DNA of 51,958 nucleotides, taken from an uncultured Candidatus Saccharibacteria bacterium (lineage in GTDB: Bacteria > Patescibacteriota > Saccharimonadia > Saccharimonadales > JAGQNJ01). Positions within the stretch are counted from its first letter, which is position 1; the number at the start of each line of letters is the position of its first letter. Of the stretch, positions 30,987 to 50,440 are shown piece by piece. The position numbers and the translations under genes were made by a program. The notes below the pieces were generated by a model. The model did no database searches, had not been told where the DNA came from, and saw only the letters and a program-made list of their open reading frames with translations. The stretch spans positions 1-51,958 of the forward strand of contig CAZPVO010000005.1 in NCBI GenBank assembly GCA_964590205.1. Direction: 5' to 3'.

Positions 30987-31313
30987 ATGGCTGTAAAAAC
31001 AACCACCACTAAACAACAACTTTCAGAAGGCACAGTGCACAAGTTGCCGCCTGATCTTAAAAAGGCTTTGCTAGCTTCAAAGGAAGCTAATAAACTTTGG
31101 GAAGATATTACACCACTGGCTCGAAATGAATGGATCTGTTGGACGATTACAGTTAAGCAACAAAAAACACGCGACGAACATGTAGCGCGTGTGGTTGAAG
31201 AACTCAAAGACGGTATGCGACGTCCTTGTTGCTGGACCGGTTGTCTGCACCGAAAAGACATACCGCTCAGCCCCACCAAAAAGTGGTTAATCAGTAAGCA
31301 GGCCAAAAAATAG
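30987..31313 (+). CDS. YdeI/OmpD-associated family protein
   Basis: Motifs LPPDLKKAL, WEDITPLARNEWICW and KTRDEHV. Confidence 0.8.
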   Translation: MAVKTTTTKQQLSEGTVHKLPPDLKKALLASKEANKLWEDITPLARNEWICWTITVKQQKTRDEHVARVVEELKDGMRRPCCWTGCLHRKDIPLSPTKKWLISKQAKK

Positions 31314-37639: not shown

Positions 37640-37927
37640 CTACCTTCTGTAACCGCCAAAGCTACCTTGTTTACGGTCGTTTTGAGGACGGGCCTGGTTA
37701 ACAACAATAGAACGACCATCGATTTCCTTGTTATTCAACTCTTTAATAGCATTTTGGCCATCTTTTAACTCTTCCATTTCTACAAATCCAAAACCTTTGG
37801 ATTGAGAAGTGTCTCTATCTTTTATGATGACAGCACTTAAAACTTTACCGTGTTCTTCAAACAGAGTTTTTAGCTGGTCATCTGTAGTGTTGTATGACAG
37901 ACCACCAACATATAATTTAATTGGCAT
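37640..37927 (-). CDS. RRM-domain RNA-binding protein
   Basis: RNP2 LYVGGL, RNP1 KGFGFVEM and a Gly/Arg tail. Confidence 0.95.
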   Translation of the reverse strand: MPIKLYVGGLSYNTTDDQLKTLFEEHGKVLSAVIIKDRDTSQSKGFGFVEMEELKDGQNAIKELNNKEIDGRSIVVNQARPQNDRKQGSFGGYRR

Positions 37928-38059
37928 AAAAAATCCTTTCTTAACTTGATATCATAGGCATTTAGTATGACTAGCCGCTAGGATATCGAGCCCAAGAAAG
38001 GCAAAGTATTGCAAAGGTAAGCTAGAGTAACCACTCGCTTAAATATATTTTACCACAAG

Positions 38060-38100
38060 ATGCGCTGAAGTGCTAACGCTCATGCTTGGTTCTCTGGATG
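38060..38100 (-). repeat. Junction repeat copy 7 (distal, degenerate)
   Basis: Minus strand: GAGAACCA-AGCAT-GAGCGT-TAGCACTTCAGCGCA. Confidence 0.55.
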
Positions 38101-38116
38101 GAGTGGATGCCGGTAC

Positions 38117-38713
38117 TCAAGTGCCAGCAGTCACAGCAACAATAACAACCACTAGTACACAAAGAAGAATGATACCTGCAATTGTGCCAACAATAATTAA
38201 ACCGAAATGATAGTTTACTATTTTAGGGGCAGTTGTATTAACTCGAAAGCCATTTTGCTGCAGGGTTGTCAGCCACTGAGTCATAACTGCCAGGCTGACA
38301 ACTGGATCTGCCTTAGGGATCTTCATATCTTCTACTGTGTAACCAGTAATACCCGCGGCTGTTGATGCTAGATCAAAACTTTGAGCTATATCGACGGCAG
38401 TGCCAACAGCTTGTTCGGCAGAAATATCAGCCTCCACGGGCTTAGCATCACTATCAATTAATGTAAATGTAGCCTGTTCATTTTGGCTCGTGAACTGAAG
38501 TGTTCCCGGCGTGTGAGAATCATATTCAACATTCAAAACTTCGTCGTGTTTCTTGCGCCACTTTTCAGTGCCATTGGGTGTGCGATATGCAAGTGAGCCA
38601 TCTTTAAAAAGTACCAGGTTGCCATGTGCACTTTGTTTTGGTGATAACATATTCGCTTGAGCAGTGAGAAGTATAGACCCGGTATCTGCTACATTTGAAG
38701 GACGGCTATCCAT
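38117..38713 (-). CDS. Cassette gene: hypothetical protein with C-terminal TM
   Basis: Start set at ATG 38713 (38719 possible); TATAAT lies 6 nt upstream. Confidence 0.65.
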   Translation of the reverse strand: MDSRPSNVADTGSILLTAQANMLSPKQSAHGNLVLFKDGSLAYRTPNGTEKWRKKHDEVLNVEYDSHTPGTLQFTSQNEQATFTLIDSDAKPVEADISAEQAVGTAVDIAQSFDLASTAAGITGYTVEDMKIPKADPVVSLAVMTQWLTTLQQNGFRVNTTAPKIVNYHFGLIIVGTIAGIILLCVLVVVIVAVTAGT

Positions 38714-38731
38714 ACGCATATTATAACAAGC

Positions 38732-38768
38732 AAAAAAAGCACCTCTTCCAACGTGCTTACCTTCTTGC
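38732..38768 (-). repeat. Junction repeat copy 6
   Basis: AAGCAC-GTTGGAAGAG-GTGCTT-TTTTT; the stop codon of the upstream hydrolase lies inside it. Confidence 0.75.
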
Positions 38769-39434
38769 CATGCGGACAAGTTTGCGTACTCTTACTAAGT
38801 TTCTAATAACTGTTTGACTGTGGTTAAGTTTATGATGAGAAATGAGTTTTACTTGTGCACCAGCAGCCTTAAGTGTCTCGATACATTCCAATGCGGCCTT
38901 AAAACCAGCGGTTTTATCATTTTTGCTTGCAACTGCAATATAGTTTTTCCCACTCAGATTCTTGAGTTTCGGATGTTGCAGCTCGTGCCAAGCTTCTGCT
39001 AATGACTCTTTGGTAAAGCCATTGACTTCAAACTTGTGTCTTTCAGACTCAAAACTCCAGATTGCTCTAGTTATGTCACCACCAGCAATCACAACACCCC
39101 AAGAAAGCTCAGGAATATCATCAAGCGAGCCATATAAAACGAAACCACCTAAGCTTGCACCGACAAAACCAAATTCTTTGTATCCCTTTTTTTGTAACGT
39201 GCGGATAGTATCTTGAATATACTTCTCAGATTGCTCAATGGCCTTAAAGAGTAGTTTCGGATCACCTGTGTCAAAGATTGCCAATGTGTAACCGAGAGCA
39301 ATTACTGAGTAATTGTCACGCAGCAATGCACGAATAGGTAGACGCAACTTGCTGACTGAGATGCCATATGGCCCAAGCAAAAAGATGGCTCTTGTAGCTT
39401 TCGGCTTTAAGTATTCTCTAGTTTCAACTAGCAT
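38757..39434 (-). CDS. Cassette gene: alpha/beta hydrolase fold protein
   Basis: GASLG elbow, ASKNDK acid and C-terminal His. Start set at ATG 39434, 7 nt after TACACT. Confidence 0.72.
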   Translation of the reverse strand: MLVETREYLKPKATRAIFLLGPYGISVSKLRLPIRALLRDNYSVIALGYTLAIFDTGDPKLLFKAIEQSEKYIQDTIRTLQKKGYKEFGFVGASLGGFVLYGSLDDIPELSWGVVIAGGDITRAIWSFESERHKFEVNGFTKESLAEAWHELQHPKLKNLSGKNYIAVASKNDKTAGFKAALECIETLKAAGAQVKLISHHKLNHSQTVIRNLVRVRKLVRMARR

Positions 39435-39449
39435 ATGGCCTAGTGTAAC

Positions 39450-39509
39450 AAAAAACACTTCGTGATGAAGTGTTTATGCTTGCTTCTACTAAGGTGGTAG
39501 ATGTTAAAA
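39450..39509 (-). repeat. Junction repeat copy 5
   Basis: TTTTAACATCTACCACCT..GAAGCA-AGCAT-AAACACTTC-ATCAC-GAAGTGTTT-TTT. Confidence 0.75.
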
Positions 39510-40376
39510 CTATGATTCAATGGGTGGTTGTGTAGGCTGGTTTGGTTGTGGTGAACTAATGTCTTTGTTTTTGCCTTTTATGCGCATCAAAGTATTAAAG
39601 TACAGGCCAGTGAATCCGATAGTTGTGTGGTGCTCGCCAAAAACCACTAGCCATAAATTACTTGGTCGCCGGCTAAAGAGCTTTATGCGCAGCGGATAAG
39701 CTGTCGCAGGGCCAGTGCTGGTAGACTGTGTCAACAGCCAGATTCTTGAAGGCTCGTGTCCATTTGTTGGAGTACCAACTATCTGATAATAGGAATCTTT
39801 GCGCCCTTTCGGACTGTTCGGATGTTTTGAGTTTAAATATCCTTTGTACTTAAGTTGGTACGGCATGTCTTTAGGACTTAGACCTGTCACGATAAAGAAA
39901 ATTGTTAGTAATAGCCGTAAACAAAAGAATATTCCATAGACAAATATTATGGTTAGGACAATTGTCAGTATCGAAAATACCACATTACTATTTGTATATG
40001 CTTCCGCTGGCAAACGGGCTGTATCACCGAAAGGTGCAATAATAACCTGTACATTATCACCAACATTAGGTTGATGAGGCTGATCGACACACATTTCCAG
40101 TGTTACCTGTCTATCATTAGCTGTTCCTTTATATCTGATCCGATTGCAGGTGTTAGGTGAATTATTGGTATAACCGTGACCACCAGCTAGGAAATGACTT
40201 TCGGTGATATGCATGCTTGCCGTTTGGGCCAGACCAAAAGTACGAGCGTAGTCTGGCTCGGTCAGTGGACTGGCAGCAAACAAAATGACAAAACAGACAA
40301 ATAAGACAGCTATCGGAATTATGAAAAAAGTAACAATAAAACCCTCAGACTTAAATATTTGACTTTTGTTGAACAT
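39510..40376 (-). CDS. Cassette gene: membrane protein with an extracytoplasmic beta-domain between two TM segments
   Basis: TM-domain-TM layout; TATACT lies 7 nt before ATG. Confidence 0.65.
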   Translation of the reverse strand: MFNKSQIFKSEGFIVTFFIIPIAVLFVCFVILFAASPLTEPDYARTFGLAQTASMHITESHFLAGGHGYTNNSPNTCNRIRYKGTANDRQVTLEMCVDQPHQPNVGDNVQVIIAPFGDTARLPAEAYTNSNVVFSILTIVLTIIFVYGIFFCLRLLLTIFFIVTGLSPKDMPYQLKYKGYLNSKHPNSPKGRKDSYYQIVGTPTNGHEPSRIWLLTQSTSTGPATAYPLRIKLFSRRPSNLWLVVFGEHHTTIGFTGLYFNTLMRIKGKNKDISSPQPNQPTQPPIES

Positions 40377-40402
40377 TAATCCTAGTATAATTTACGCACA
40401 AT

Positions 40403-40461
40403 AAAAAAGCACTTCTTTCACAGTGCTTGTGCTTGGGTCTGAGTGACGGTGGAAGTTAGAA
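40403..40461 (-). repeat. Junction repeat copy 4
   Basis: TTCTAACTTCCACCGT-CACTCAGACCCA-AGCAC-AAGCACT-GTGAAAGA-AGTGCTT-TTTT. Confidence 0.85.
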
Positions 40462-40989
40462 CTACTTTAGATCTTTTAGCACAGAACCTAATGTCTGATT
40501 ATTAATATAGGTCGTTTCTAAAAATTGAGCGTAAAACTTTTTCCCATACTCGGCTGCTCCTTCAAGACAAACTTGCAGGTATCGTCCTTGGGCGATGGAA
40601 CCAAAATCGTAATTACCGTTGTTCTTATTTGCTGAAAAGACTTTGCATTCTCCTAGAGGCTTGCCACTTTCGAAGTTATATGCGGTTGTGGATACTAAAG
40701 CGTACTCTTGTTCACGTCGTCTGAGTGCTTTGAAATACGTCTCATCAACACTAAAGACAATGCCATTAACATGAGATTTACCCTCAGCCTGCTTAACATC
40801 AACTGCACAAAACGGTATGCCACGAATATCACGATTCGTTTCTGTAAAGCCTTCGGGATCCCATAAACTAAAGTCTCGGACAAAACCTTCAATGTAGGCG
40901 GGTCGTATATCGCTCACATCGGGCACAGTTGCCCGCAATGATTCCTTAGACATTAGTGAGCCGTAACCGAAAACAAGTAGCTTGCTCAT
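40462..40989 (-). CDS. Cassette gene: gamma-glutamylcyclotransferase (GGCT/ChaC-like) family
   Basis: Motifs LVFGYGSLM, NGIVF and LRRREQEY. Start set at ATG 40989. Confidence 0.8.
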   Translation of the reverse strand: MSKLLVFGYGSLMSKESLRATVPDVSDIRPAYIEGFVRDFSLWDPEGFTETNRDIRGIPFCAVDVKQAEGKSHVNGIVFSVDETYFKALRRREQEYALVSTTAYNFESGKPLGECKVFSANKNNGNYDFGSIAQGRYLQVCLEGAAEYGKKFYAQFLETTYINNQTLGSVLKDLK

Positions 40990-41009
40990 TGACATATGAT
41001 AGCAAAAAT

Positions 41010-41066
41010 AAAAGCACCTCATTCAAAGTGCTTATGCATGGCTCTTTGTAACGGTGGAAGTTAGAA
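41010..41066 (-). repeat. Junction repeat copy 3
   Basis: TTCTAACTTCCACCGT-TACAAAGAGCCA-TGCAT-AAGCAC-TTTGAATGAG-GTGCTT-TT; two mismatches to copy 1 over ~35 nt. Confidence 0.9.
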
Positions 41067-41453
41067 TCACTCTAGTTGGGTTTGGATATTGGCGAGGCGA
41101 TCAAACAGGGATTGTTTTTCACTCTCATCCAACCAATGGGTAGACGTTACAGGACGCGACGGGATACTCCCTTCTGTTTTGGCAAACTCCCAAACACGTT
41201 CGTCCTCGTGAAGTTCGTATATATGCCAGTCATTACCTTCGCCTATGTGGATTCTTCCGATAATGTCTCCAGAACCCCCAATAGTTCCTCCTTCACTTGC
41301 CAGTGACATGTGAACTACGGTTCCATCAGGCAAACGTCGGTTAAAGACGCCTCGTTCGTTGGATGTACGGCTAAATCGACTCTCAGGATTTGTGAGTGAG
41401 ATTTCACCCAATAATTCCCTTGTCTGCTCAAAAGGCGTATCTGTTCGGCTCAT
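41067..41453 (-). CDS. Cassette gene: hypothetical protein
   Basis: 128-aa ORF bounded by junction repeats. Confidence 0.65.
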   Translation of the reverse strand: MSRTDTPFEQTRELLGEISLTNPESRFSRTSNERGVFNRRLPDGTVVHMSLASEGGTIGGSGDIIGRIHIGEGNDWHIYELHEDERVWEFAKTEGSIPSRPVTSTHWLDESEKQSLFDRLANIQTQLE

Positions 41454-41457
41454 AAAA

Positions 41458-41520
41458 ACAAAAATACCACTTTTTTGGCATTTTGCATATTGCTTATGCT
41501 TGGCTCTCTGTGGCCATCGA
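41458..41520 (-). repeat. Junction repeat copy 2
   Basis: 16 nt (GAGCCAAGCATAAGCA, 41506-41491) are identical to copy 1, followed by an alternative hairpin ATGCCA-AAAAAG-TGGTAT and a T-tract. Confidence 0.8.
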
Positions 41521-41522
41521 AT

Positions 41523-41870
41523 TTAGCTAGCCTCGTCAGAAAAAGGTACATACTCTGTAATTATTGCAGGTGTTTCTTGATAGGCTTGAGTAAGGCCCGT
41601 GTTGTCCAGGGTGGCAAAAGGCTGCTCCCCTACGAAAAAACTGTATGTACTTGGTGTGCTTTCATTACGAACCACACACTTTTGAGCAACTGATAAGTCG
41701 CCATCTGCTAGTCGGGCTTCATCTTCAGTAGAGAAGTCCCATAGAAGTATAAGCCTACCAACAGCCAGGCCAGGGACGTCTGGGTGAGTAACTGTAAATA
41801 TACCTTCTGACGCGGTTGGGCTTATCTCTACCTCTTGCCCGTGCTTACCTTCATAGTGTCTCCACAACAT
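41523..41870 (-). CDS. Cassette gene: hypothetical protein
   Basis: 115-aa ORF with its own promoter TTGCAC-16-TATAAT, 8 nt before ATG. Confidence 0.65.
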   Translation of the reverse strand: MLWRHYEGKHGQEVEISPTASEGIFTVTHPDVPGLAVGRLILLWDFSTEDEARLADGDLSVAQKCVVRNESTPSTYSFFVGEQPFATLDNTGLTQAYQETPAIITEYVPFSDEAS

Positions 41871-41917
41871 GGTGGCTAATTATAAAACTTTTCAGCGATT
41901 GTGCAAGAACCTAAAAC

Positions 41918-41966
41918 AAAAAGCACCTCTTTCAAAGTGCTTATGCTTGGCTCCGGGGAGAGGATA
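41918..41966 (-). repeat. Junction repeat copy 1 = tRNA-Asn-like 3' end (att site) plus terminator
   Basis: ATCCTCT-CCCCGGA-G-CCA reads as T-stem, acceptor strand, discriminator G and CCA (implied 5' TCCGGGG, Asn-type). It is followed by AGCAT-AAGCAC-TTTGAAAGAG-GTGCTT-TT. Confidence 0.85.
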
Positions 41967-42187
41967 ATGCCGTCCCTCTGGGACGAACGCACCTCCGACT
42001 ATTGCCTGCTTCGCAGTCAAGTCGGAGAATCGAAGCCTTGCACGAAAAATGAGCCTGCCCAGAACCTCTTTGGGTTCTGATCAGACTCATGGCTCACACT
42101 AGCTGACGCATTGCGAACTGCCAGTGCGGAATATGACGAGCATCAAGTGCAAAATATTCAGTCTATACTGCAGTACAATGCGTTAGC

Positions 42188-42583
42188 TTAGGCACTATCT
42201 ACTTCTGAATAATCAAATCCGATTGAATAATGAGGTATTTCCGCATTACCAGTGGGTGTTTCCTTTGCTGGTTCCCAAGCCCAACAAGCCAACTCAGTGT
42301 AATGATAAGTGTCCAAGGCACTGAGGCTTACTGTTTCCTTGGCTGCATTACCTAGAACTCCGTACATATCATAACCACCTCTAGCGTAGATAACGGGACA
42401 AGTCCAGATTGCCTTGAACTTTTCTATGTAGCCATCTATATGGACTGCGTAACAAGTGAATTTGTTTAGTCCGGGCTTCATCTTGTACTTTTTATCAAAT
42501 GCCGTTCCATACTCATCCCCTATAAACAATCGAGCTATAGTATTTCGACTATGTTCAAACTGTCTAACGGGTTGATTGTCCAT
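42188..42583 (-). CDS. Hypothetical protein (island cargo)
   Basis: 131-aa ORF; TAAAAT lies 6 nt before ATG. Confidence 0.6.
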   Translation of the reverse strand: MDNQPVRQFEHSRNTIARLFIGDEYGTAFDKKYKMKPGLNKFTCYAVHIDGYIEKFKAIWTCPVIYARGGYDMYGVLGNAAKETVSLSALDTYHYTELACWAWEPAKETPTGNAEIPHYSIGFDYSEVDSA

Positions 42584-42619
42584 AGGTGTATTTTAGCTTC
42601 AATGTAATACTATATCTAC

Positions 42620-43762
42620 ATGATTAGGGACTTTAAGCCAGACCACACATCCGACCATGCTAGTGGTCCTTTGTATTTTGTGCGTTCTGAAGATAAGTAC
42701 AGGAGCTTGTGGCAGTACATTAAACGTTACCAAAATCCAACATTTAACGACAAAATACTCAAGAAACGTCACCCCGCTATGGCCAGCGGTATAAGAAAAG
42801 TCAAAGCACAACACGTTGCCGATGCTCTAAAGCAAGCTGAGGCTTATTTCAATACAGCAAGGTCCAGTGAGCTTGCGATTAAGCCACTCATTTTATACTA
42901 CGGGGCACTAAATATGGTTAAGGCTCTCATGATTTTCGCCGATAATGACCTTACGCTTGAAAATACGGTTCAAAGGGATAAAGGGTTGAACACTCATGGG
43001 CTTACAAATGGTGCTTCTAGCCCAGCCGATGAAGCGATCCGGAATGATAGCACTAACCTTCTTGAGGAATTTGGACTCGTAAATGCAGTAGACAAAACCG
43101 TTTTCTCCCTGTTGCATAGCTGCTGGTCTGACACTCCATTGCCGCAAGGTACTCGACTTGAACTCGGCGATTTAGCGTCAATGCATCCAAATAGCTGGAG
43201 GAGTTACAAGGCACACACCGATAAGCCACCGAAGTATTTCAAAATCGAAGGTGCCAGCTTTCGTACAACGGCAAGGGGTCCAGAGCATATGGTTGTGTTC
43301 GGCGGATTATTCAATTCGATGCTTTACCAACCAACAATGCCAACTGGTCAAGATAACATCTTTGCATTCTTTGAGGGTCAGCTGTCTCAACTTGCGACCT
43401 ATTACAGTCGAGAAACTCAGCCGCAATCCAGCTTTTATACGAATACTATGCCTAATAATATCGATGAATATTTGCCTGGCTATCGTGAGCCTAGTGGCAC
43501 AAGGTTCGTTATGAAAAATATTAACGCAGGGCAAGCATTACATCTTATAGAGGTTGAATTCGCAATGTTATTTATTCTCGGAAATCTTACCAGATACGTA
43601 CCTCAGAAGTGGCTAGACAACGTGAACTATGGGAACAAAGGTGAAATGTTTGTGGTTGAGGGCTTTATTAACTCAGTTGCTTTCTCTTTTCCCAAGCTTA
43701 TTTTTGAAGAGCTCGAAGAGAAGGACTACACCTTCACAGGTGATGTTGCTTACTGGAACTGA
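42620..43762 (+). CDS. YaaC-like family protein
   Basis: Motifs QAEAYFNTA, IKPLILYYGALN, THGL and LFILGNLTRY.P..W. Confidence 0.7.
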   Translation: MIRDFKPDHTSDHASGPLYFVRSEDKYRSLWQYIKRYQNPTFNDKILKKRHPAMASGIRKVKAQHVADALKQAEAYFNTARSSELAIKPLILYYGALNMVKALMIFADNDLTLENTVQRDKGLNTHGLTNGASSPADEAIRNDSTNLLEEFGLVNAVDKTVFSLLHSCWSDTPLPQGTRLELGDLASMHPNSWRSYKAHTDKPPKYFKIEGASFRTTARGPEHMVVFGGLFNSMLYQPTMPTGQDNIFAFFEGQLSQLATYYSRETQPQSSFYTNTMPNNIDEYLPGYREPSGTRFVMKNINAGQALHLIEVEFAMLFILGNLTRYVPQKWLDNVNYGNKGEMFVVEGFINSVAFSFPKLIFEELEEKDYTFTGDVAYWN

Positions 43763-43975
43763 TCCATATATTTAACGACTTATAAATTTAGTGACAACAG
43801 ATTAAAATTTGTGAATTTTGCCATTCTGTGCCCCTAGGAGCTCATAGCTTTATGTAGTGCATTAGATAAGTGCCCATCGAGTCCGTTCATCTTTTTCCAT
43901 ATGGACAGACCGAGTTACCCTACGAAAATTTTTTAGCCAGCTTTTTACGTCTTAAACGCTGTTTGTCCGGTATAT

Positions 43976-44629
43976 CTATCTTTGGCGAATTGAGGTAGCA
44001 ATAAGCTCGGCAAGTGGCTTATTTGAATCTTCACTGAAGTGAATACCGTCCTCGCCAGAATGTGCCACATCGGCAGCGTTAAGAAATAGACAATCATTAC
44101 CTTCGGCAACTTTCTTTATTGCTTCTGCAAGTCGTAATGATTCCTGCATAGAACGACTATCGTAGTAACCGGTATAAAACTCAGTGAACCGAGGGGCTTT
44201 GTCATCTACTAGGATGGGACTGATAAGTATAATCTTGGGTGCTTTCCCATTTTTGTCTGAACCATATGTCCGCACATCTTCAACTAATCCTTTGATTGCA
44301 GTAGCGATTTCCTCGGCAGTACGTGAGTACTCCATTTTTAAGTCGTTCGTGCCAAGCATAATGGTAACAATATCAACTGGTATATGACTTGCTACACAAG
44401 GCACGAGATACGTCTTCCCGTTGCGTCCTAACTTACGGTTATATTCCAGGTCGGTTGTTCGACTGCCCAAGCCTTCTTCTACTATGTAGTAATTGGCACC
44501 GAGCAAATCTTGTAGCAAGCCCGTCCAGCGTATATTGACTTCATAACGACCTGTCTTATCTGGTTTCTGCCCCCAGGTGTTACTGTCGCCGTAACATAGT
44601 ACTTTTATTGCTGAAGGGTTCGTGTTCAT
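43976..44629 (-). CDS. SGNH/GDSL hydrolase
   Basis: Motifs CYGDSNTWG, EEGLGSRTT, MLGTNDLK and DGIH; ATGA overlap with the upstream gene. Confidence 0.92.
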   Translation of the reverse strand: MNTNPSAIKVLCYGDSNTWGQKPDKTGRYEVNIRWTGLLQDLLGANYYIVEEGLGSRTTDLEYNRKLGRNGKTYLVPCVASHIPVDIVTIMLGTNDLKMEYSRTAEEIATAIKGLVEDVRTYGSDKNGKAPKIILISPILVDDKAPRFTEFYTGYYDSRSMQESLRLAEAIKKVAEGNDCLFLNAADVAHSGEDGIHFSEDSNKPLAELIATSIRQR

Positions 44630-45207
44630 TGTAAACACTCCTTAACCAACTCTGGGAACTCAACGGTATTCATGTCTTCAAAACAGAAATGTCCGTAATT
44701 ATGGAATTCTCTGTATTCAATGCCATTAACCTTATCTCGAATTATTTGCACTGACTTGTGAATGGTTTCTTGGTCGTCATCAGAATTAAATACGGTAACG
44801 CCAGCCGTTCGACTTACTAAATCAGGGTCAATCTCAAAATCAAAAAAATCTGCTGTGTCAGATACTGGATTATTTTCAGGATTAAGCCAAGGTGCTACCA
44901 ACACAACCTTACCGACTCTTTTATCCTTATTTTCACTTAGCCAGCGAACTAGAAAACCTCCACCACAGCTATGTCCAACTAACACTGTTTCGGGGGTAAT
45001 ATCAAATTTTTCAAATTCTCTTTTCCATACTTCATAGCGTGGTGAATAAGGTTTTGGAGGTTCAATCGCTATGGCAAATACGTCATTTATTTGCAATTGC
45101 TTTGATAGCCAAGGAAACCAATGTCCGTTACTGTTGGTTGGATACTGAGGGTCGTAATACTCTTCTTTGTCGGGTCTTCCTGGTACTAATATTGCATTTT
45201 TTGTCAT
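44626..45207 (-). CDS. RBBP9/YdeN family alpha/beta hydrolase
   Basis: Motifs HWFPWL, VGHSCGG, LVAPW, NSDDD and GHF. Confidence 0.88.
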   Translation of the reverse strand: MTKNAILVPGRPDKEEYYDPQYPTNSNGHWFPWLSKQLQINDVFAIAIEPPKPYSPRYEVWKREFEKFDITPETVLVGHSCGGGFLVRWLSENKDKRVGKVVLVAPWLNPENNPVSDTADFFDFEIDPDLVSRTAGVTVFNSDDDQETIHKSVQIIRDKVNGIEYREFHNYGHFCFEDMNTVEFPELVKECLQ

Positions 45208-45746
45208 GCTTCATACTCCCATCCTGGTTGCCAAGCCTTTTGTTTTCGCCAGTCACTTGCAAAAGCCTCTTCCCATGTCATACCCTTCAGTATCACGTCC
45301 ATAGCAAGCTGTGGGGCTTTGTGGGCGACAATAGCTATATGCTTGCCATCGTATTCATTCTTGATTGAATCTAGGAAGTTCATGATTCTGGTCTTAACGT
45401 CTTCATAACTTTCGCCATTAGGCATAGGGGCTGAGATGGACTTTTCCTGCATCGGTTCAACGATGTCTGAATTTTTGCCATTCAAATCGCCATAGTTGCA
45501 TTCTCGTAATCTTTTATCAGCGAAGGTGGGGTACTTATCGCCCCATGTTAATTTTGCCGAGTCTATTGCACGGCTTAGATCAGAAGTAAACACGGCATCA
45601 AATGATTTATCTGCCGTCAATTTAGTCAAGTCTTTAGATTGCTGAATTCCTAATTCAGAAAGCTTAACATCATTCCAACCTGAAGATTTGTTTTCTTCGT
45701 TATCTGTCGTTGTTCCGTGAACAAAGTAAGTGATTTTAACTGACAT
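45204..45746 (-). CDS. Histidine phosphatase family protein
   Basis: VHGTT (an RHG variant), FTSDLSRA, RLRECNYG, GES and IVAH. Start set at ATG 45746. Confidence 0.88.
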   Translation of the reverse strand: MSVKITYFVHGTTTDNEENKSSGWNDVKLSELGIQQSKDLTKLTADKSFDAVFTSDLSRAIDSAKLTWGDKYPTFADKRLRECNYGDLNGKNSDIVEPMQEKSISAPMPNGESYEDVKTRIMNFLDSIKNEYDGKHIAIVAHKAPQLAMDVILKGMTWEEAFASDWRKQKAWQPGWEYEA

Positions 45747-45747
45747 A

Positions 45748-46839
45748 TTAAATATTGCTCTTTCGGCGATTATCGTCTTTACATAACATCTGGCAATTTT
45801 CGGCTGTAGTATGCCCGCCTTCAACCCAAGGTTTAATGTGGTCAGCTTCCATCTCGCTTATATCAAAATGCTTGCCGCATTTAGGGCATACACCATTTTG
45901 CCGCTCATATGCTTCACGTTTCATTTTGTCTGTGAATGCTCGAATGGACAGATACTTTTCATTACCATTAAGTACGTATTGGTAGATACCAGATTTTTTT
46001 GTAACATCTTCATCTTGCATGAGTACTTTAATTTTAACTTCTAACTTTTCCGAATCTAACTCTGCATCTTTGAATTCGTTATACAAAGTCCCCCATGCAA
46101 CACTCTTCATTTCGTGTCTGTAGTTAGTAAATGTCCGCCTAGCCCATGCAATGACTTCCTGGAAGTAATGCCATAATTCATCAGCATTCTGGTCGTGCTG
46201 GTGCTTAGCCATATAATCAGCAATTTCACCATTGTTGATCCATGACAATGCTGTTTCTAGTACTTCTTGTCTAATCGGAGATCCACTTACTAATGCTCCA
46301 CCGTCAGTAGCAAGTAGATAGGCAACACAATTCGATTTACTGAATTTATACTTGGCATCACTAAGCCATGGACCAGTGTAAACTGCATTGCGTAGCTCTT
46401 GTTCGGTTAGCTTTTCACCTGCAATGTTAATAATTTTGAACCAGTCCAGTCGCTCTTTATCGGTTCCTTCACAGTGATAAATCATTAGCTCATAATCAAG
46501 TATCTGATTCTGTTCTTCTGTTGTTAGGTTATGAAAGAATCGGTCATCAAGTGAGAAATCGTTGTTAACATATTGGGCGATACTTATGGTTCTTTGTTGT
46601 CCGTCCAAGACTTCAAAATTGCCTTGGTCTGTTTTAACCCAATACATTACGTTCAATGGGAAGTTATTTTTAATTGTCCGTATTACCTCGTCACGTTGTG
46701 TGCCGGTGTAAACAAATTCTCGTTGATACTTAGGTCTAATATCAAGCTTTCCGCCATATGCGGACACACCTAGCTCATCGCTATCTTTGTAGTCTTTCGT
46801 AACCTCACGAATTTTTATACGATGTAAGTCAATTTTCAT
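45748..46839 (-). CDS. DUF262 (GmrSD-like) + HNH endonuclease
   Basis: Motifs PKYQREFVY and LDGQQRT; C-terminal CPKC..EADHIKPW..GG.T..ENCQMLC..DNRRK. Confidence 0.9.
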   Translation of the reverse strand: MKIDLHRIKIREVTKDYKDSDELGVSAYGGKLDIRPKYQREFVYTGTQRDEVIRTIKNNFPLNVMYWVKTDQGNFEVLDGQQRTISIAQYVNNDFSLDDRFFHNLTTEEQNQILDYELMIYHCEGTDKERLDWFKIINIAGEKLTEQELRNAVYTGPWLSDAKYKFSKSNCVAYLLATDGGALVSGSPIRQEVLETALSWINNGEIADYMAKHQHDQNADELWHYFQEVIAWARRTFTNYRHEMKSVAWGTLYNEFKDAELDSEKLEVKIKVLMQDEDVTKKSGIYQYVLNGNEKYLSIRAFTDKMKREAYERQNGVCPKCGKHFDISEMEADHIKPWVEGGHTTAENCQMLCKDDNRRKSNI

Positions 46840-47921
46840 TTTGTCGCCTTTCGTTTAATCAGGATTCTTGTGTAAAGTGCTTTTCCGTTCAAGACGGGTC
46901 CTACATATTTGCGGTGCTGTTCATCTACATATGTTGGTGTACCCTGAATAAAAGCCTCTGACTTCTCTCGTTTGTCATCAAATATACCAATAAGCTCAAA
47001 CTGGTCTGGGTTATATTTGTCGAGAAATGTAATCGGTACACCCATCTTACCCTCAAAATCCATTGGTATATCAGCAACTTTTGGAACTTCTATAGCGTCA
47101 TAATTGTCATACTTGGGATACTGCTCATTAGAGTACTTTTTGTACATTTCAAACTTTTCATGATGCTTCGTGTTCTCAAGGTTTGTTAGCCAACACGCCA
47201 TAATGTGTTTCAGCTTCACGCCATCAATAATCTTTTCATACTTTTCGCCATCAGGCACTCTGAGCCACATATCACTGTTGATATTTCGGTAGCCCAACCA
47301 GAGTTCGTCATTTTGAATTAGCTTGAAAACAAAGTTATATTTCACCGAATTCTTATTTGCAATAATCAAATACTTCTTTTTGTTGCTTACTATTTGCTCT
47401 ATAAACTCACGAAACAATGAAAAGGGTGGGTTGGTAACTACAATATCCGATTGCTTAAGTAGCTCTACGCATTCTTCACTTCTAAAATCACCATCGCCTT
47501 CTAGCGGTGCCCATTCATTATGCTTATTGGCTTTTAGCATTTCGGCGATGTCATTTAGATTAAAGGCTCCATCACCATTTATGTCGCCGACTTCGTTGAT
47601 AACAAACTTATTGGCTGTAACTTTAGGACGTCCTTTTGCGGGGATAATTGTTTTATCATCACCAAATAAGCCAAGCTGTGTGTTGGCAATTGGCGATGGT
47701 TTGTAGCTTGTAGTGATTAGGCTTTTAAGCCCTAGCAACTTGAAATTCAGTACAAAGTATCGGAAGAAGTTACTTTCAAATGGATCATCACAGTTACAGT
47801 AAACAACCTTCCCCCGAAATTGGTCCCTATAGTGCTTTAGCTCATCCTCAATGTCTTTAATTTGAGTGTAAAATTCATCTTTCTTTTGTGTTTTAGCACT
47901 ATGCAGCGTTTTATTAGCCAT
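46836..47921 (-). CDS. Adenine-specific DNA methyltransferase, EcoRI-methylase family
   Basis: Motifs KKDEFYT, VYCNCDDP, GDGDFRS, VVTNPPFS and MGVPITFLDKYNPDQF. Confidence 0.9.
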   Translation of the reverse strand: MANKTLHSAKTQKKDEFYTQIKDIEDELKHYRDQFRGKVVYCNCDDPFESNFFRYFVLNFKLLGLKSLITTSYKPSPIANTQLGLFGDDKTIIPAKGRPKVTANKFVINEVGDINGDGAFNLNDIAEMLKANKHNEWAPLEGDGDFRSEECVELLKQSDIVVTNPPFSLFREFIEQIVSNKKKYLIIANKNSVKYNFVFKLIQNDELWLGYRNINSDMWLRVPDGEKYEKIIDGVKLKHIMACWLTNLENTKHHEKFEMYKKYSNEQYPKYDNYDAIEVPKVADIPMDFEGKMGVPITFLDKYNPDQFELIGIFDDKREKSEAFIQGTPTYVDEQHRKYVGPVLNGKALYTRILIKRKATK

Positions 47922-47923
47922 TT

Positions 47924-48115
47924 TTATTTACTACTCTCTTCCAGGAATTTTAGAACATCATCCTTTTTCCAACGTCTAATATTGCGACCGCCAATGCGGA
48001 TTGCTTTGAGCCTTCCTTCACGATCCCAATTTCTGAACGTATTTTCATGAACTTTTAATAAACTGGTAACTTCTTTTAACGTCAAATATTCAGGTAGTTC
48101 GTTCTTTTCGCTCAT
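47924..48115 (-). CDS. Excisionase-like (MerR-type) HTH protein
   Basis: YLTLKEVTSLLKVHENTFRNWDREGRLKAIRIGG...RW. Confidence 0.85.
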   Translation of the reverse strand: MSEKNELPEYLTLKEVTSLLKVHENTFRNWDREGRLKAIRIGGRNIRRWKKDDVLKFLEESSK

Positions 48116-48146
48116 CTACCAATATCTTATAATATCTAACAACACT

Positions 48147-48980
48147 ATGGAAGCTACAAACAAACCATCGAAAGCCAATGACTACGCAGTTGCTCATGCA
48201 ATGAACAGAGAAATATTCTCAACATTCGTGATGGTATATGCCGGGTACACTATGGACATATCCGAATACTATGAAATACCAAACCTTAATCGTGCTTATA
48301 TATTATTGGTTGATGAACTACAAAAGATATACGCTCGAAACCCAGAACTACAGTCGATAAAGCCCGACCCACTCTGGAAGCGTTTTGAGGTGCTTAAAAA
48401 CCACACGGAAGAGATATTTGATTACGTAAGTGACACTGAAAATTGGGGTCACGAACACATCGCTAAAGTCGAGAAACTATGTATCATTGCTGGTGTTGAA
48501 GACCCTATTTATACCCCAGAGCAGCAAAAGCTTATTGATAACCTGGATGCTAATAGAAAAGAGTACGCTAGTAAAATCAAAGAACTAATGGAGAAATCAG
48601 AGAAGGACATTCAGATTCCTTCTTACAATCTTACGTTCAAGCTTGACGGCTCGATACTTATAAATGATGTATTTAGGCTAAAGAGGGTTCATGTTGCTTC
48701 AAGCACTGAAAGACTGCTTGAACAGGCTCTAAAGAGCCCAAACACTCTATTTAAGCCTGATATTGGTCAAACCTCACGTAACCTTAGCACCGTTCTTAGT
48801 AGTGCAGGTTTTACGAGAGAATTAAGACAGTTATTCTTCCCTACGGTTAGTAATAACAAAGGCATTGTTTTTCGGCCTACCATATCTCGTCAGCAAGCAG
48901 ATGAAGAGAATATAGATACTACAGAACTAGATGCAAAGCTCTATGCATTAGGTGCAAAGACTGAACCGAAAAGCACCTAA
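48147..48980 (+). CDS. Hypothetical protein (element backbone)
   Basis: 277-aa ORF divergent from the HTH gene. Confidence 0.65.
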   Translation: MEATNKPSKANDYAVAHAMNREIFSTFVMVYAGYTMDISEYYEIPNLNRAYILLVDELQKIYARNPELQSIKPDPLWKRFEVLKNHTEEIFDYVSDTENWGHEHIAKVEKLCIIAGVEDPIYTPEQQKLIDNLDANRKEYASKIKELMEKSEKDIQIPSYNLTFKLDGSILINDVFRLKRVHVASSTERLLEQALKSPNTLFKPDIGQTSRNLSTVLSSAGFTRELRQLFFPTVSNNKGIVFRPTISRQQADEENIDTTELDAKLYALGAKTEPKST

Positions 48981-48994
48981 AACAAACCGATTCA

Positions 48995-49041
48995 GAACCA
49001 AAAACAGTACTACCCGAACCATTTAGTTACAACACAGAACC
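48995..49041 (+). repeat. Phased GAACC pentamers (21-bp spacing) upstream of rep
   Basis: GAACC at 48995, 49016 and 49037; also 48963, with AAACC at 48984. Confidence 0.45.
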
Positions 49042-49085
49042 CATACAACGACTAGGGTTTGTTTTGTTGCGATACTCGGCTTGTT

Positions 49086-49247
49086 ATGAACAGCAAGCCA
49101 CTAGAAACCAGCCGAAGCCAAGCCCCCAATAATGGGTCTGAATTGGTATTAAGCAATGACGAGATTGAACAGCTCGCCAAGTTTCTAGATGCTTTGCTGG
49201 AGTCTGACTTGGCGAACAAGAGTGACGGGGGCAACGGCAATGATTGA
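49086..49247 (+). CDS. Small hypothetical protein overlapping the rep start
   Basis: 53 aa; overlaps the rep ATG by 8 nt. Confidence 0.5.
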   Translation: MNSKPLETSRSQAPNNGSELVLSNDEIEQLAKFLDALLESDLANKSDGGNGND

Positions 49248-50373: not shown

Positions 50374-50440
50374 GCTATTGTTAGCAAATAGCGGATAATC
50401 CCAGTATAATTAAGACATAATATAGGAAGGAAGTCCAATC

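What the first reader, a model, noticed from the sequence alone, without database searches (positions are those of the whole stretch)
38060..41966. Integron-like array of single-gene cassettes separated by tRNA-3'-end + terminator repeats
Seen: six unrelated, co-oriented genes (TM hypothetical, a/b hydrolase, membrane protein, GGCT and two hypotheticals) are separated by seven degenerate copies of one unit, (GA)GCCA-AGCAT-AAGCAC-N8-10-GTGCTT-Tn. Copy 1 is the 3' end of a tRNA-Asn-like gene. The hairpin keeps pairing through sequence change (AAGCAC/GTGCTT versus AAACAC/GTGTTT). Most genes have their own -10 box between the T-tract and ATG, so each unit is terminator + promoter + ORF + arm + att core. 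Copies nearest the island resemble the tRNA end best. Inference: these are minimal, integrase-free cassettes stacked by repeated site-specific insertion at one tRNA. That would be a gene-capture platform that is not a CRISPR array, a classical attC integron or an ordinary island. The cognate recombinase is unknown; it could be the adjacent serine recombinase or an enzyme encoded elsewhere.
Basis: partly seen in the sequence, partly recalled or inferred. Interest (0 to 1): 0.9.

Follow-up and report, generated by a model that had tools for sequence, protein, structure and literature searches.

The report
Serine-recombinase gene-cassette array at tRNA-Asn
Behind the tRNA-Asn gene of this tiny Saccharibacteria genome lies a stack of one-gene units, each ending in the same recombination scar (a leftover piece of a serine-recombinase gene plus the last bases of the tRNA). 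Relatives show that such units move singly between distantly related genomes, so the stack works like an integron built from different parts.

Summary
The repeats are real: seven junctions lie inside 38060-41966 and an eighth at 42045-42193. All are on the minus strand, between co-oriented genes. Copy 1 is not a tRNA gene. The real tRNA-Asn lies on the next contig, which overlaps the window's end by 55 nt. A 10-kb element with a large serine recombinase (LSR) gene separates it from the array.

Each junction has three parts: an arm, the core GAGCCA, and a trailer.
- The arm is the antisense of the LSR gene's C-terminal tail, because the element's attachment site lies inside that gene.
- The core is the discriminator base plus CCA end of tRNA-Asn.
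- The trailer is AGCATAAGCAC followed by a terminator hairpin.

The hairpin occurs nowhere else in the 901-kb genome. The 11-mer AAGCATAAGCA, in contrast, is a general promoter-proximal motif.

The same-genus relative has none of the six cassettes at its tRNA-Asn. Arrays with other cargo occur in other genera. In relatives, one 709-bp cassette is 99.7-100% identical in three families and sits in five different neighbourhoods, and its identity starts and stops at GAGCCA.

It is a variant of tRNA-anchored accretion arrays, most likely driven by LSRs. This scan has reported the same architecture in at least 12 other genomes, and I found no paper describing it.

The parts
50441..51958 (+). Large serine recombinase (LSR) gene, open at the contig end. 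It continues on contig C8 into the antisense of tRNA-Asn (...SQNWLRGEDSNLRPGG*).
   Evidence: Pfam Resolvase + Recombinase + Zn_ribbon_recom. 55-nt overlap of C5 with C8 and read-through translation. 865 homologs at E<=1e-30; most of the 120 examined end in antisense-tRNA peptides.
42090..51958 (.). Integrated LSR element of about 10 kb. attL is at the tRNA-Asn CCA on C8 and attR is at 42090-42095. Cargo: rolling-circle Rep-like gene, EcoRI-type methylase, GmrSD/HNH nuclease, histidine phosphatase, two hydrolases, YaaC-like gene and a 131-aa ORF.
   Evidence: Pfam. Boundaries come from tail0 plus GAGCCA and the C5-C8 join. The boundary assignment is inferred; excision was not observed.
42090..42193 (-). 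Junction J0 arm. On the + strand it is the orphaned C-terminal tail of the LSR gene (WLTLADALRTASAEYDEHQVQNIQSILQYNALA*, type B), ending in the core GAGCCA (42090-42095). This is the attR of the 10-kb element.
   Evidence: Translation. Homologs P0024, P0032, P0048 and P0049 end WLSLADTLRTASTDYDEHKVNAIKELLVTV.
42045..42089 (-). Hairpin plus T-run directly after the J0 core. It is probably the terminator that followed tRNA-Asn before the element inserted.
   Evidence: Sequence. Other tRNAs have the parallel layout tRNA - terminator - scar module.
41948..42037 (-). tRNA-Asn 3'-half 'mimic'. It consists of a 5' hairpin, then the T-stem, acceptor 3' strand and GCCA of tRNA-Asn, with a 24-nt hairpin (GTCCCAGAGGGAC) inserted in the T-loop. 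It is probably the scar of a second LSR lineage. It is not a tRNA gene.
   Evidence: ARAGORN and Rfam are negative. Comparison with the real tRNA-Asn and with the paralog beside tRNA-Arg. Further copies lie beside tRNA-Asp, tRNA-Met(i), tRNA-Arg(CCT) and tRNA-Lys. The 5' hairpin covaries.
41917..41954 (-). Junction J1: core GGAGCCA plus trailer AGCATAAGCAC, hairpin and T-run. It matches the native tRNA-Asn end and trailer of relatives.
   Evidence: Real tRNA-Asn genes in G009, G035 and G018 carry the same trailer.
41523..41870 (-). Cassette ORF, 115 aa, no family match.
41454..41522 (-). Junction J2: short type A-like arm (reverse complement reads WLSVAIEF), core GAGCCA, trailer AGCATAAGCAA and hairpin.
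41067..41453 (-). Cassette ORF, 128 aa, no family match.
41004..41066 (-). Junction J3: type A arm TTCTAACTTCCACCGTTACAAA starting right after the stop codon, core GAGCCA, trailer and hairpin.
40462..40998 (-). Cassette ORF, gamma-glutamyl cyclotransferase (ChaC/GGACT-like).
   Evidence: Pfam. Homologs in only 5 of 301 genomes of the order.
40403..40461 (-). Junction J4: type A arm, core GACCCA, trailer AGCACAAGCAC and hairpin.
39510..40376 (-). Cassette ORF, 288-aa membrane protein, no family match.
39449..39509 (-). Junction J5: decayed type A arm, core GAAGCA, trailer AGCATAAACAC and the compensated hairpin AAACAC/GTGTTT.
38757..39437 (-). Cassette ORF, alpha/beta-hydrolase-like (weak match). 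It reads through the decayed arm and stops at the TAA of the trailer motif.
   Evidence: sequence.
38731..38783 (-). Junction J6: strongly decayed arm and core, intact AAGCAC/GTGCTT hairpin.
38117..38779 (-). Cassette ORF, C-terminal transmembrane protein, 208-220 aa depending on the start codon. No family match.
38077..38116 (-). Junction J7: decayed arm resembling the second junction of the G018 array, core GAACCA, trailer AGCATGAGCG. This is the distal end of the array.
37640..37927 (-). RRM RNA-binding protein gene, the first gene beyond the array.
   Evidence: Pfam RRM_1.

Best explanation
The interval is the distal part of a recombination hotspot at the 3' end of tRNA-Asn.

How the parts fit:
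- Elements of one large-serine-recombinase (LSR) family insert at the tRNA's ...GAGCCA end.
- Their attachment site lies inside the recombinase gene itself. Integration therefore cuts off the gene's C-terminal tail and leaves it, in antisense, at the far junction, next to a copy of the core.
- Each repeat in the array is such a junction: arm (a P-type half-site derived from a recombinase tail), core GAGCCA (the crossover region, which is the tRNA discriminator base plus CCA), and a trailer that terminates the upstream transcript.

Each unit of trailer, ORF and arm behaves as a recombinase-free cassette. It can be cut and joined at the cores by an LSR supplied in trans. New units enter next to the tRNA and push older ones outward, where their junctions decay.

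In this genome the newest insertion is a complete 10-kb LSR element (42090 to the contig end).

Shown: the anatomy, the arm-tail homology, cassette turnover, and core-to-core exchange of one cassette in relatives.
Inferred: that the LSR catalyses it, the exact crossover position, the order of insertion, and that the window's own six cassettes arrived this way.
For: 1. Contig C5 joins C8. The LSR ORF runs into the antisense of tRNA-Asn.
2. Of the 120 best LSR homologs, most end WL(R/P)xxDSN..., which is antisense tRNA and marks the integrated state. Thirteen carry real tails of types B, C or D. Homologs at 84-85% identity carry type C (WLTTIEEVIT...), and those at 66-68% carry type B, like the window's tail0.
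3. The arms are the reverse complement of those tails. Type A arms (J3, J4; WLFVTVEVR...) share TAACTTCC at a fixed 13-nt distance from GCCA with full type C arms. One fixed-spacing pattern retrieved both types in 15 Saccharibacteria MAGs among 19 hits across 185,579 species genomes.
4. The array hairpin is found only in the array within the 901-kb genome.
5. Turnover: same-genus genome G001 has an identical tRNA-Asn and a syntenic upstream flank, but none of the six cassettes. G018 (nine junctions) and G019 carry arrays with other cargo, such as APH, GNAT, SDR, kinases and pyrophosphatases.
6. Mobility: a 709-bp HAM1/RdgB-like cassette is 99.7-100% identical in genomes of three families. The exact protein sits in five different co-oriented neighbourhoods. 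Identity begins at GAGCCA|AGCATAAGCAC and ends after the arm's GAGCCA(A). Left arms (B, C, D and another type) and right trailers (three types) assort freely.
7. The only site-specific recombinases in the genome are two LSRs and one Xer-like tyrosine recombinase located elsewhere.
8. Junction mismatches rise with distance from the tRNA side: 0, 1, 1, 2, 3, then more.
Against: - No recombination was observed.
- None of the window's six cassette genes was found elsewhere with junctions. GGCT homologs in four other genomes lack them. No cassette DNA matched in 400 genomes of the order.
- Canonical LSRs recombine only attP with attB. Internal junctions are all of the attR type (P arm plus B'-like trailer), so moving a single cassette needs an activity not documented for LSRs.
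- The resident LSR has a type B tail, while most window arms are type A.
- The AAGCATAAGCA part of the 'core' is a general intergenic motif. Its conservation may reflect gene expression rather than recombination.
- G011 shows an LSR element decaying in place. Some units may therefore be remnants of full elements rather than cassettes that moved on their own.
Confidence: 0.65

Rival explanations
1. Pure decay. Each junction is the scar of one complete LSR element that inserted at tRNA-Asn and was then whittled down by deletion to its last cargo gene. On this view single-gene units never move on their own.
For: - In the intact 10-kb element the last cargo gene (42188-42583) already abuts the recombinase tail, in the same way a cassette abuts its arm.
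- G011 has a tRNA-Asn followed by an LSR gene truncated to its last 105 codons, with a type B junction 6.8 kb away.
- Truncated LSR gene ends also occur in G021 and G010.
Against: - No recombinase remnants lie between any two junctions in the G000, G018 or G019 arrays.
- After each core comes a trailer and terminator, not antisense recombinase sequence as serial whole-element insertion would leave.
- The 28-nt type A arm has the same boundary (stop codon, then TTCNAAC...) in several genera and families.
- The HAM1-like unit is exchanged precisely core-to-core in five contexts.
Confidence: 0.2
2. An expression module, not a recombination site. The repeat would be a shared terminator plus promoter-proximal signal, spread by duplication or selection between small genes. 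The resemblance to a tRNA end would be incidental.
For: - AAGCATAAGCA with up to 1 mismatch gives 80 hits, 48 of them in the 9% of the genome that is non-coding. The reversed control gives 19 hits, 1 of them intergenic.
- 34 of 46 intergenic copies point at a downstream gene, 3-80 nt before its start.
- Four junction hairpins score as intrinsic terminators.
Against: - The full unit (arm + GAGCCA + trailer + this hairpin) occurs only in the array and once behind tRNA-Asp.
- The arms are homologous to recombinase gene tails.
- Arrays start at tRNA genes in several genera.
- Cassette identity breaks at GAGCCA, upstream of the 11-mer.
Confidence: 0.06
3. A tyrosine-recombinase system (integron integrase, Xer or a tRNA-targeting phage-type integrase) builds the array, and the LSR is a bystander.
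For: Most known tRNA-targeted islands, and all integrons, use tyrosine recombinases (established knowledge; PMC4383910 abstract). GCATAA in the trailer faintly recalls a Xer-binding arm; this is my own recollection and was not tested.
Against: - The genome has one Phage_integrase-family gene, on another contig (C4:7951-8478), and none in the window.
- There is no attC-like R''/L''-L'/R' structure.
- Arm-tail homology ties the junctions to the LSR gene.
Confidence: 0.03
4. An RNA-level function. The arm plus GAGCCA would form a tRNA-like 3' tag on each cassette mRNA, for processing, stability or CCA-end mimicry, and would be conserved for that reason.
For: - Every cassette transcript would end in ...GAGCCA followed by a terminator.
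- The related 'mimic' modules have a 5' hairpin with six compensated pairs across five copies.
Against: - Type A arms show no conserved pairing.
- Rfam finds nothing.
- This idea does not explain core-to-core exchange or the homology to recombinase tails.
Confidence: 0.04

Closest known systems
Dehalococcoides ssrA genomic islands (ssrA-GIs) with the serine recombinase DsiB (PMC3146451)
   Same: - A large serine recombinase targets the 3' end (T-loop region) of a tRNA-like gene.
- Several tandem islands lie downstream, each bounded by a direct repeat of the gene's 3' end.
- A conserved extra motif sits upstream of each repeat.
- Recombinase-free units are interpreted there as cis-mobilizable elements gained by accretion.
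   Different: - Those islands are multi-gene, and 16 of them carry a six-gene integration module adjacent to attL (PMC3146451).
- The recombinase is CcrB-like and paired with a small second recombinase.
- That paper does not describe an attachment site inside the recombinase gene.
- Here most units are single genes of 0.45-0.9 kb, and the conserved motif upstream of the repeat is the recombinase's own tail.
Prochlorococcus tycheposon islands (10.1101/2020.12.28.424599)
   Same: tRNA-anchored hotspots in a streamlined genome. Successive integrations push older elements outward. Partial tRNAs and degraded elements are scattered through the island. Cargo consists of accessory genes.
   Different: Tycheposons use tyrosine recombinases. 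Their units are multi-gene elements with replication modules. The repeats are partial tRNAs, not recombinase-gene tails.
Integrons (IntI, attI, attC cassettes)
   Same: It works alike: an array of mostly single, co-oriented, unrelated accessory genes. Each gene carries its own recombination site at its 3' end. Newest units lie nearest the anchor. Cassettes are shared between unrelated hosts. Cargo in relatives is integron-like (APH, GNAT, small hydrolases).
   Different: There is no IntI, no attI next to an integrase, and no attC hairpin sites. The anchor is a tRNA 3' end. The candidate enzyme is a serine recombinase, not a tyrosine recombinase. Each cassette is followed by a terminator trailer (hairpins of the AAGCAC/AAACAC type at five of the seven array junctions), and -10-like boxes precede four of the genes by eye. 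There is no shared Pc promoter.
Large serine integrases of phages and conjugative elements (phiC31, Bxb1, A118) and SCC/Ccr composite islands
   Same: The domain set is Resolvase + Recombinase + zinc ribbon. The core shared by attL and attR is short (6 bp). Integration is at one specific chromosomal site. SCC elements likewise accrete in tandem at one site, including recombinase-free units.
   Different: - The attachment site lies inside the recombinase's own coding region, so integration exchanges the enzyme's C-terminus.
- The target is a tRNA end that the element must rebuild.
- Arrays consist of attR-type junctions around single genes.
- The comparison with SCC and phage integrases rests on established knowledge. 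It was not tested here.

Membership tests
Integron | IntI-type tyrosine recombinase gene next to the array | tested here: not met
   The genome has one PF00589 match, on contig C4. No ORF tested in or beside the array (37640-51958) has a tyrosine-recombinase match.
Integron | attC sites: imperfect inverted repeats (R''-L''...L'-R') with a GTTRRRY core at each cassette's 3' end | tested here: not met
   The junction alignment shows an arm, GAGCCA and a terminator hairpin. The only inverted repeat is the G+C-poor terminator stem, and there is no GTTRRRY core.
Integron | Co-oriented, mostly single-gene cassettes that occur in different orders and hosts | tested here: met
   Window ORF map. Arrays in G018 and G019. 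HAM1-like cassette in five contexts.
Large-serine-recombinase integrative element | Recombinase with Resolvase catalytic domain, Recombinase domain and zinc ribbon | tested here: met
   Pfam PF00239, PF07508 and PF13408 on 50441-51958.
Large-serine-recombinase integrative element | Element bounded by attL and attR that share only a short core | tested here: met
   attL is ...CCCCGGAGCCA|ATTTTGAC on C8. attR is ...TAGTGTGAGCCA|TGAGTCTG at 42090-42095. They share GAGCCA. The attR assignment rests on tail homology.
Large-serine-recombinase integrative element | Demonstrated integration and excision (circular form, empty site) | not testable with these tools
Indirect evidence only: homologs exist both with antisense-tRNA ends and with real tails.
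tRNA/tmRNA-anchored accretion array with cis-mobilizable units (CIME-type) | Tandem units downstream of a tRNA-like gene, each bounded by a repeat of its 3' end | tested here: met
   Eight junctions carry (G)AGCCA-type cores downstream of tRNA-Asn. The same holds in G018, G019, G035 and G012.
tRNA/tmRNA-anchored accretion array with cis-mobilizable units (CIME-type) | Units that lack a recombinase but keep the att sequences | tested here: met
   No recombinase domain in the six cassette ORFs. Arms and cores are retained.
tRNA/tmRNA-anchored accretion array with cis-mobilizable units (CIME-type) | Mobilisation of those units by a recombinase in trans | tested here: inconclusive
   Comparative evidence shows core-to-core exchange for one cassette in relatives. 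There is none for the window's own cassettes, and no enzyme assay.
tRNA gene (claim for copy 1) | Cloverleaf with an anticodon arm, detectable by ARAGORN or the Rfam tRNA model | tested here: not met
   No call at 41948-42037. Only the 3' half matches tRNA-Asn, and the T-loop is interrupted.

The most novel reading that the evidence does not exclude
Saccharibacteria run an integron-like gene-capture system on large serine recombinases. The attachment site lies inside the recombinase gene, so every captured unit keeps a spare recombinase tail as its recombination arm. Single-gene cassettes are excised, exchanged between families and re-inserted at tRNA 3' ends (Asn, Asp, Met, Glu and others). 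Each excision through a different junction gives the enzyme a new C-terminus, which might act as a built-in directionality or state switch. This would be a main route of gene gain in genomes below 1 Mb that lack other known mobile-DNA machinery.
Probability: 0.4. Interest if true: 0.85.

Novelty: new variant of a known kind. Interest (0 to 1): 0.68.

Why it matters
Saccharibacteria and other ultrasmall, host-dependent bacteria have genomes under 1 Mb, and how they gain accessory genes is poorly understood. These arrays would be a compact, self-expressing gene-capture platform anchored at tRNA ends.

Cargo in relatives includes phosphotransferases, acetyltransferases, nucleotide-cleansing enzymes and small hydrolases. 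One cassette is found at 99.7-100% nucleotide identity in three families, which means recent transfer of single genes.

Mechanistically it would extend what large serine recombinases are known to do. These enzymes are widely used as genome-engineering tools. Here the attachment site is inside the enzyme's own gene, the C-terminus is swapped on integration, and cassette-sized substrates may be recombined.

Practically, the junction (arm, GAGCCA, trailer) is a searchable marker for accessory-gene hotspots in Saccharibacteria metagenome assemblies.

Tried and rejected
- tmRNA, RNase P or another known RNA at 41950-42190: rejected. Rfam finds nothing at E<=10 and ARAGORN finds no tmRNA in the genome.
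- The 'mimic' as the orphan tail of the adjacent LSR: I held this view for a while and then rejected it. None of the 120 homologs ends with DNAVPLGRTHLRL. That peptide lies in no long ORF in 301 genomes, although I tested only one reading frame. The real tail of the adjacent LSR is at 42090-42190.
- The trailer as a general tRNA trailer in this genome: rejected. None of the other 36 tRNAs has it.
- Travel of the GGCT cassette with its junctions: homologs in G005, G255, G163 and G118 show no junctions, so this is uninformative.
- Near-identical copies of the window's cassettes in 400 genomes of the order: none found.
- Exact-protein look-ups for the RRM gene and the 128-aa cassette: these returned only contigs identical to the window, from SRR9179559 and SRR9179560. 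One such contig starts exactly after the CCA at 41947. That could reflect a branch in the assembly graph, but it proves nothing.
- A sigma-70 promoter in each unit: not supported statistically.
- G+C content: the array (0.40-0.46) does not differ from the genome average of 0.43.
- A 5-bp outward shift of the TTCNAA motif in type A arms relative to the tRNA end, as expected for LSR attP versus attB half-sites. Depending on the anchor, the shift is 3-5 bp. I leave this as an untested hint.

Full report
OBSERVATION

The window is the whole of contig C5 of a 901-kb, 15-contig Saccharibacteria assembly. Between 38117 and 41870 there are six co-oriented ORFs on the minus strand.

Pfam supports only the ChaC/GGACT call for 40462-40998 and gives a weak hydrolase hint for 38757-39437. 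The other four ORFs have no family in Pfam or NCBIfam.

The intergenic repeats are real. The repeat finder groups them. The 15-mer GCCAAGCATAAGCAC with up to 3 mismatches gives 8 hits against 1.94 expected, and no shuffle reaches 8. The 15-mer has 0, 1, 1, 2 and 3 mismatches at J1 to J5 as distance from the tRNA side grows. J6 and J7 fall outside the 3-mismatch limit and are still more diverged.

The stem AAGCAC/GTGCTT occurs four times in the whole genome, all in the array. J5 carries AAACAC/GTGTTT, one compensated pair. Four hairpins pass a terminator scan, 7 sites against 3.4 expected. Sigma-70-like promoters are not enriched, 7 against 9.4. The 'own -10 box' claim therefore rests on inspection only.

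COPY 1 IS NOT A tRNA GENE

ARAGORN and Rfam find nothing at 41948-42037, even at E<=10. The only tRNA-Asn(GTT) is at C8:47-121, 46 nt from a contig end.

C5's last 55 nt are identical to C8's first 55 nt, so C8 continues the window. The serine-recombinase ORF that starts at 50441 then reads ...SQNWLRGEDSNLRPGG*. It runs into the antisense of tRNA-Asn and stops at the complement of the anticodon loop.

The protein has the Resolvase, Recombinase and zinc-ribbon domains of a large serine recombinase, LSR. Two notes from earlier in this scan, on another contig of this genome, suggested that such repeats are cut-off ends of an LSR gene whose attachment site lies inside the gene. I tested that idea here.

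THE ARMS ARE RECOMBINASE TAILS

Among the 120 best homologs of the LSR, most end WL(R/P)xxDSNxxP.... That is the antisense of a tRNA T-arm and marks the integrated state. Thirteen carry genuine tails of three types:
- type C: WLTTIEEVITxIKxD
- type B: WLSLADTLRTASTDYDEHKVNAIKELLVTV
- type D: WLPIQVTE...

Homologs at 84-85% identity (P0003, P0005) carry type C. Homologs at 66-68% identity carry type B.

On the window's plus strand, 42090-42190 reads WLTLADALRTASAEYDEHQVQNIQSILQYNALA*, a type B tail. It starts with TGGCTC, the complement of GAGCCA. It is followed, in the tRNA's orientation, by a hairpin terminator at 42045-42089.

I therefore place the right end (attR) of a roughly 10-kb integrated element at 42090-42095. 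The left end (attL) is the tRNA's GAGCCA on C8. The two share only those 6 bp.

The element carries a rolling-circle Rep-like gene, an EcoRI-type methylase, a GmrSD/HNH nuclease and several hydrolases.

The arms of J3 and J4 are TTCTAACTTCCACCGTYAC... and start directly after the stop codon. They read WLFVTVEVR... in reverse complement. They share TAACTTCC at a fixed 13-nt distance from GCCA with full type C arms (...GGTTATAACTTCCTCTATTGTTGTGAGCCA). One fixed-spacing pattern retrieved both forms. It gave 19 hits across 185,579 species genomes, and 15 of them are in Saccharibacteria. By my own estimate, about 4 hits would be expected by chance. J2, J5 and J7 are shorter or decayed versions, and J6 has been absorbed into the upstream ORF.

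THE TRAILER

Real tRNA-Asn genes in G009, G035 and G018 are followed directly by AG(C/T)ATAAGCA(C/T), and in G009 and G035 by a hairpin as well. The part of the repeat after CCA is therefore the native downstream flank of the target, not tRNA sequence. In this genome no other tRNA has it.

The 11-mer AAGCATAAGCA is nevertheless a general signal. With up to 1 mismatch there are 80 hits, 48 of them in the 9% of the genome that is non-coding. The reversed control gives 19 hits, 1 of them intergenic. Thirty-four of 46 intergenic copies point at a gene that starts 3-80 nt downstream.

The full junction, in contrast, is confined to the array plus one copy behind tRNA-Asp.

Turnover. The same-genus complete genome G001 has an identical tRNA-Asn and a syntenic upstream flank. 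None of the six cassettes is present there.

Other genera have arrays at the same place with other cargo:
- G018 has nine junctions that start at the real tRNA-Asn. Its cargo includes APH, an epimerase, an AAA kinase with a GNAT, an SDR and PNPOx.
- G019 has six junctions. Its cargo includes an Exo_endo_phos protein, an amidohydrolase with DHODH, an AAA kinase, a pyrophosphatase and a MazG-like protein.

Only one cassette gene is shared between arrays, at 56% identity.

Generic terminator. This is rejected for the hairpin.

DIRECT COMPARATIVE EVIDENCE THAT SUCH UNITS MOVE

Two unrelated MAG loci, L060 and L075, share one 750-bp block at 98.5% identity and nothing else. The two sequences become identical at GAGCCA|AGCATAAGCAC. 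They stay near-identical (two differences inside the arm) up to the GAGCCAA at the end of the unit's own type B arm, and diverge completely after it.

Across 401 genomes of the order, the core-to-core unit (709 bp, a HAM1/RdgB-like NTP pyrophosphatase) is 99.7-100% identical in genomes of three families and 84% identical in a fourth genome.

The exact protein is indexed in 47 blocks of public assemblies. The ten places shown fall into five different co-oriented neighbourhoods. In all of them the identity boundaries fall at the cores. Left neighbours carry arms of type B, C, D or another kind, and right neighbours carry three different trailers.

Free assortment of arms and trailers around an invariant unit is what recombination within GAGCCA predicts.

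WHICH ENZYME?

The genome has two LSR genes, this one and one at the initiator tRNA on C2. It has one tyrosine recombinase, Xer-like, on another contig. Arm-tail homology ties the junctions to the LSR family.

That the LSR catalyses cassette exchange is inferred, not shown. Canonical LSRs recombine attP only with attB. Internal junctions look like attR sites, so single-cassette movement needs either excision from the tRNA-side site out to a distal junction (carrying several units) or an undocumented activity.

A decay route also exists. G011 has an LSR gene cut down to its last 105 codons beside tRNA-Asn, with a type B junction 6.8 kb away. I give the mixed model 0.65: an LSR-built array whose units are cis-mobilizable cassettes. 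I give pure decay 0.2.

For the window's own six cassettes there is no direct evidence of movement.

THE 'MIMIC' (41948-42037)

It copies the variable-loop/T-stem, acceptor 3' strand and GCCA of tRNA-Asn, with GCGTTCGTCCCAGAGGGACGGCAT in place of the T-loop centre. It is preceded by a hairpin whose 5' strand is complementary to the tRNA-derived 3' strand.

Similar modules, each copying its local tRNA, follow the tRNA's terminator at these places:
- tRNA-Arg(GCG) on C4
- tRNA-Asp at the C4/C12 boundary
- tRNA-Asp in G001, tRNA-Arg(CCT) in G018 and tRNA-Lys(CTT) in G032

A further copy, for the initiator tRNA, lies at C2:38400-38520. That position coincides with the far end of the 8.7-kb LSR element reported earlier by this scan.

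The 5' hairpin has 18 pairs, and six of them are compensated across five copies.

My reading is that these are junction scars of the second LSR lineage, but I found no intact gene carrying this sequence as a tail. I tested only one reading frame, so the point stays open.

COMPARISON WITH KNOWN SYSTEMS

The closest described systems are:
- The Dehalococcoides ssrA islands. They use a serine recombinase, form tandem islands bounded by repeats of the target's 3' end, have a conserved motif upstream of each repeat, and include recombinase-free units explained by accretion (PMC3146451).
- The Prochlorococcus tycheposon islands. These show successive tRNA-targeted insertions that leave partial tRNAs and remnants, but they use tyrosine recombinases (10.1101/2020.12.28.424599).

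The array works like an integron but fails the integron's defining tests: no IntI and no attC.

What is different here is the single-gene unit size, a recombination arm that is the recombinase's own spare tail, and the tRNA CCA end as the crossover core.

Three literature searches found no description of this in Saccharibacteria. This scan has reported the same architecture in at least 12 other genomes. My results agree with those notes. They add the core-to-core cassette shared across families, the array-only hairpin, the genome-wide 11-mer and the exact anatomy of this locus.

VERDICT

The array is a new variant of a known kind. Interest 0.68.

Noticed in passing
whole genome G000; in the window for example 22259 (-), 6138 (+), 13688 (+): The 11-mer AAGCATAAGCA (up to 1 mismatch) is strongly enriched between genes: 48 of 80 hits lie in the 9% of the genome that is non-coding, against 1 of 19 for a reversed control. 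It mostly points at a gene start 3-80 nt downstream, often right after a -10-like box. It may be a promoter, leader or regulator-binding motif of this lineage.
   Followed up: partly
window 41948-42037; G000 C4:108150-108245; C12:96-225; C2:38400-38520; L033 (G001), L032 (G018), L011 (G032): A family of 'tRNA 3'-half mimic' modules lies downstream of at least six different tRNA genes. Each copies its local tRNA from the variable loop to CCA. Each has a hairpin of variable length inserted in the T-loop and a 5' hairpin that covaries with the tRNA sequence (six compensated pairs). I found no gene that carries it as a tail.
   Followed up: partly
G000 C4 start / C12:1-600: tRNA-Asp is split across two contigs with a 29-nt overlap, so ARAGORN misses it. 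Behind it lie a terminator, a mimic, a WhiB-like 85-aa gene (C12:234-491) and a type A junction with the tRNA-Asp-like end GCCGCCA plus AGCATAAGCAA. This is a second, small cassette locus in the same genome.
   Followed up: partly
L025/L027 (G002:C1:123286-123617): The tRNA-Asn of G002 is interrupted by 257 nt between positions 34 and 35, in the anticodon loop. This may be a group I intron. An LSR homolog (53% identity) ends 9 nt inside the same tRNA's 3' end.
   Followed up: no
L060:4211-4290 and about 40 of 401 genomes of the order: A 78-nt trailer, AGCCGNAATAGACRAAGTCAGAAC...GTTCTGACTTTTTG...CCCAGARTAGAAYTGAAACC, is 84-91% conserved across many families. It follows a type-II tRNA ending GTCCCCGGAGCCA in G278, and it follows arms of types B, C and D elsewhere. 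It may be a terminator plus a conserved promoter or leader, or a small RNA.
   Followed up: no
window 45748-47921: The LSR element carries an EcoRI-family adenine methylase next to a GmrSD_N + HNH nuclease gene. This may be a restriction or defence pair travelling as cargo. A Phage_CRI-like rolling-circle replication gene lies at 49189-50373.
   Followed up: no
window 35998-36906 and upstream: A COX2/COX_ARM (cytochrome oxidase subunit II-like) gene lies about 0.7 kb beyond the RRM gene (37640-37927) at the distal end of the array. In G001 and G018 the conserved downstream flank instead corresponds to window ~31000-31300. The variable region may therefore extend further than the array.
   Followed up: no
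L048/L041 (G011:C2:175670-182540): A decaying LSR element lies at tRNA-Asn. The recombinase gene is reduced to its last 105 codons, with one stop codon, while the far type B junction is intact.
   Followed up: partly
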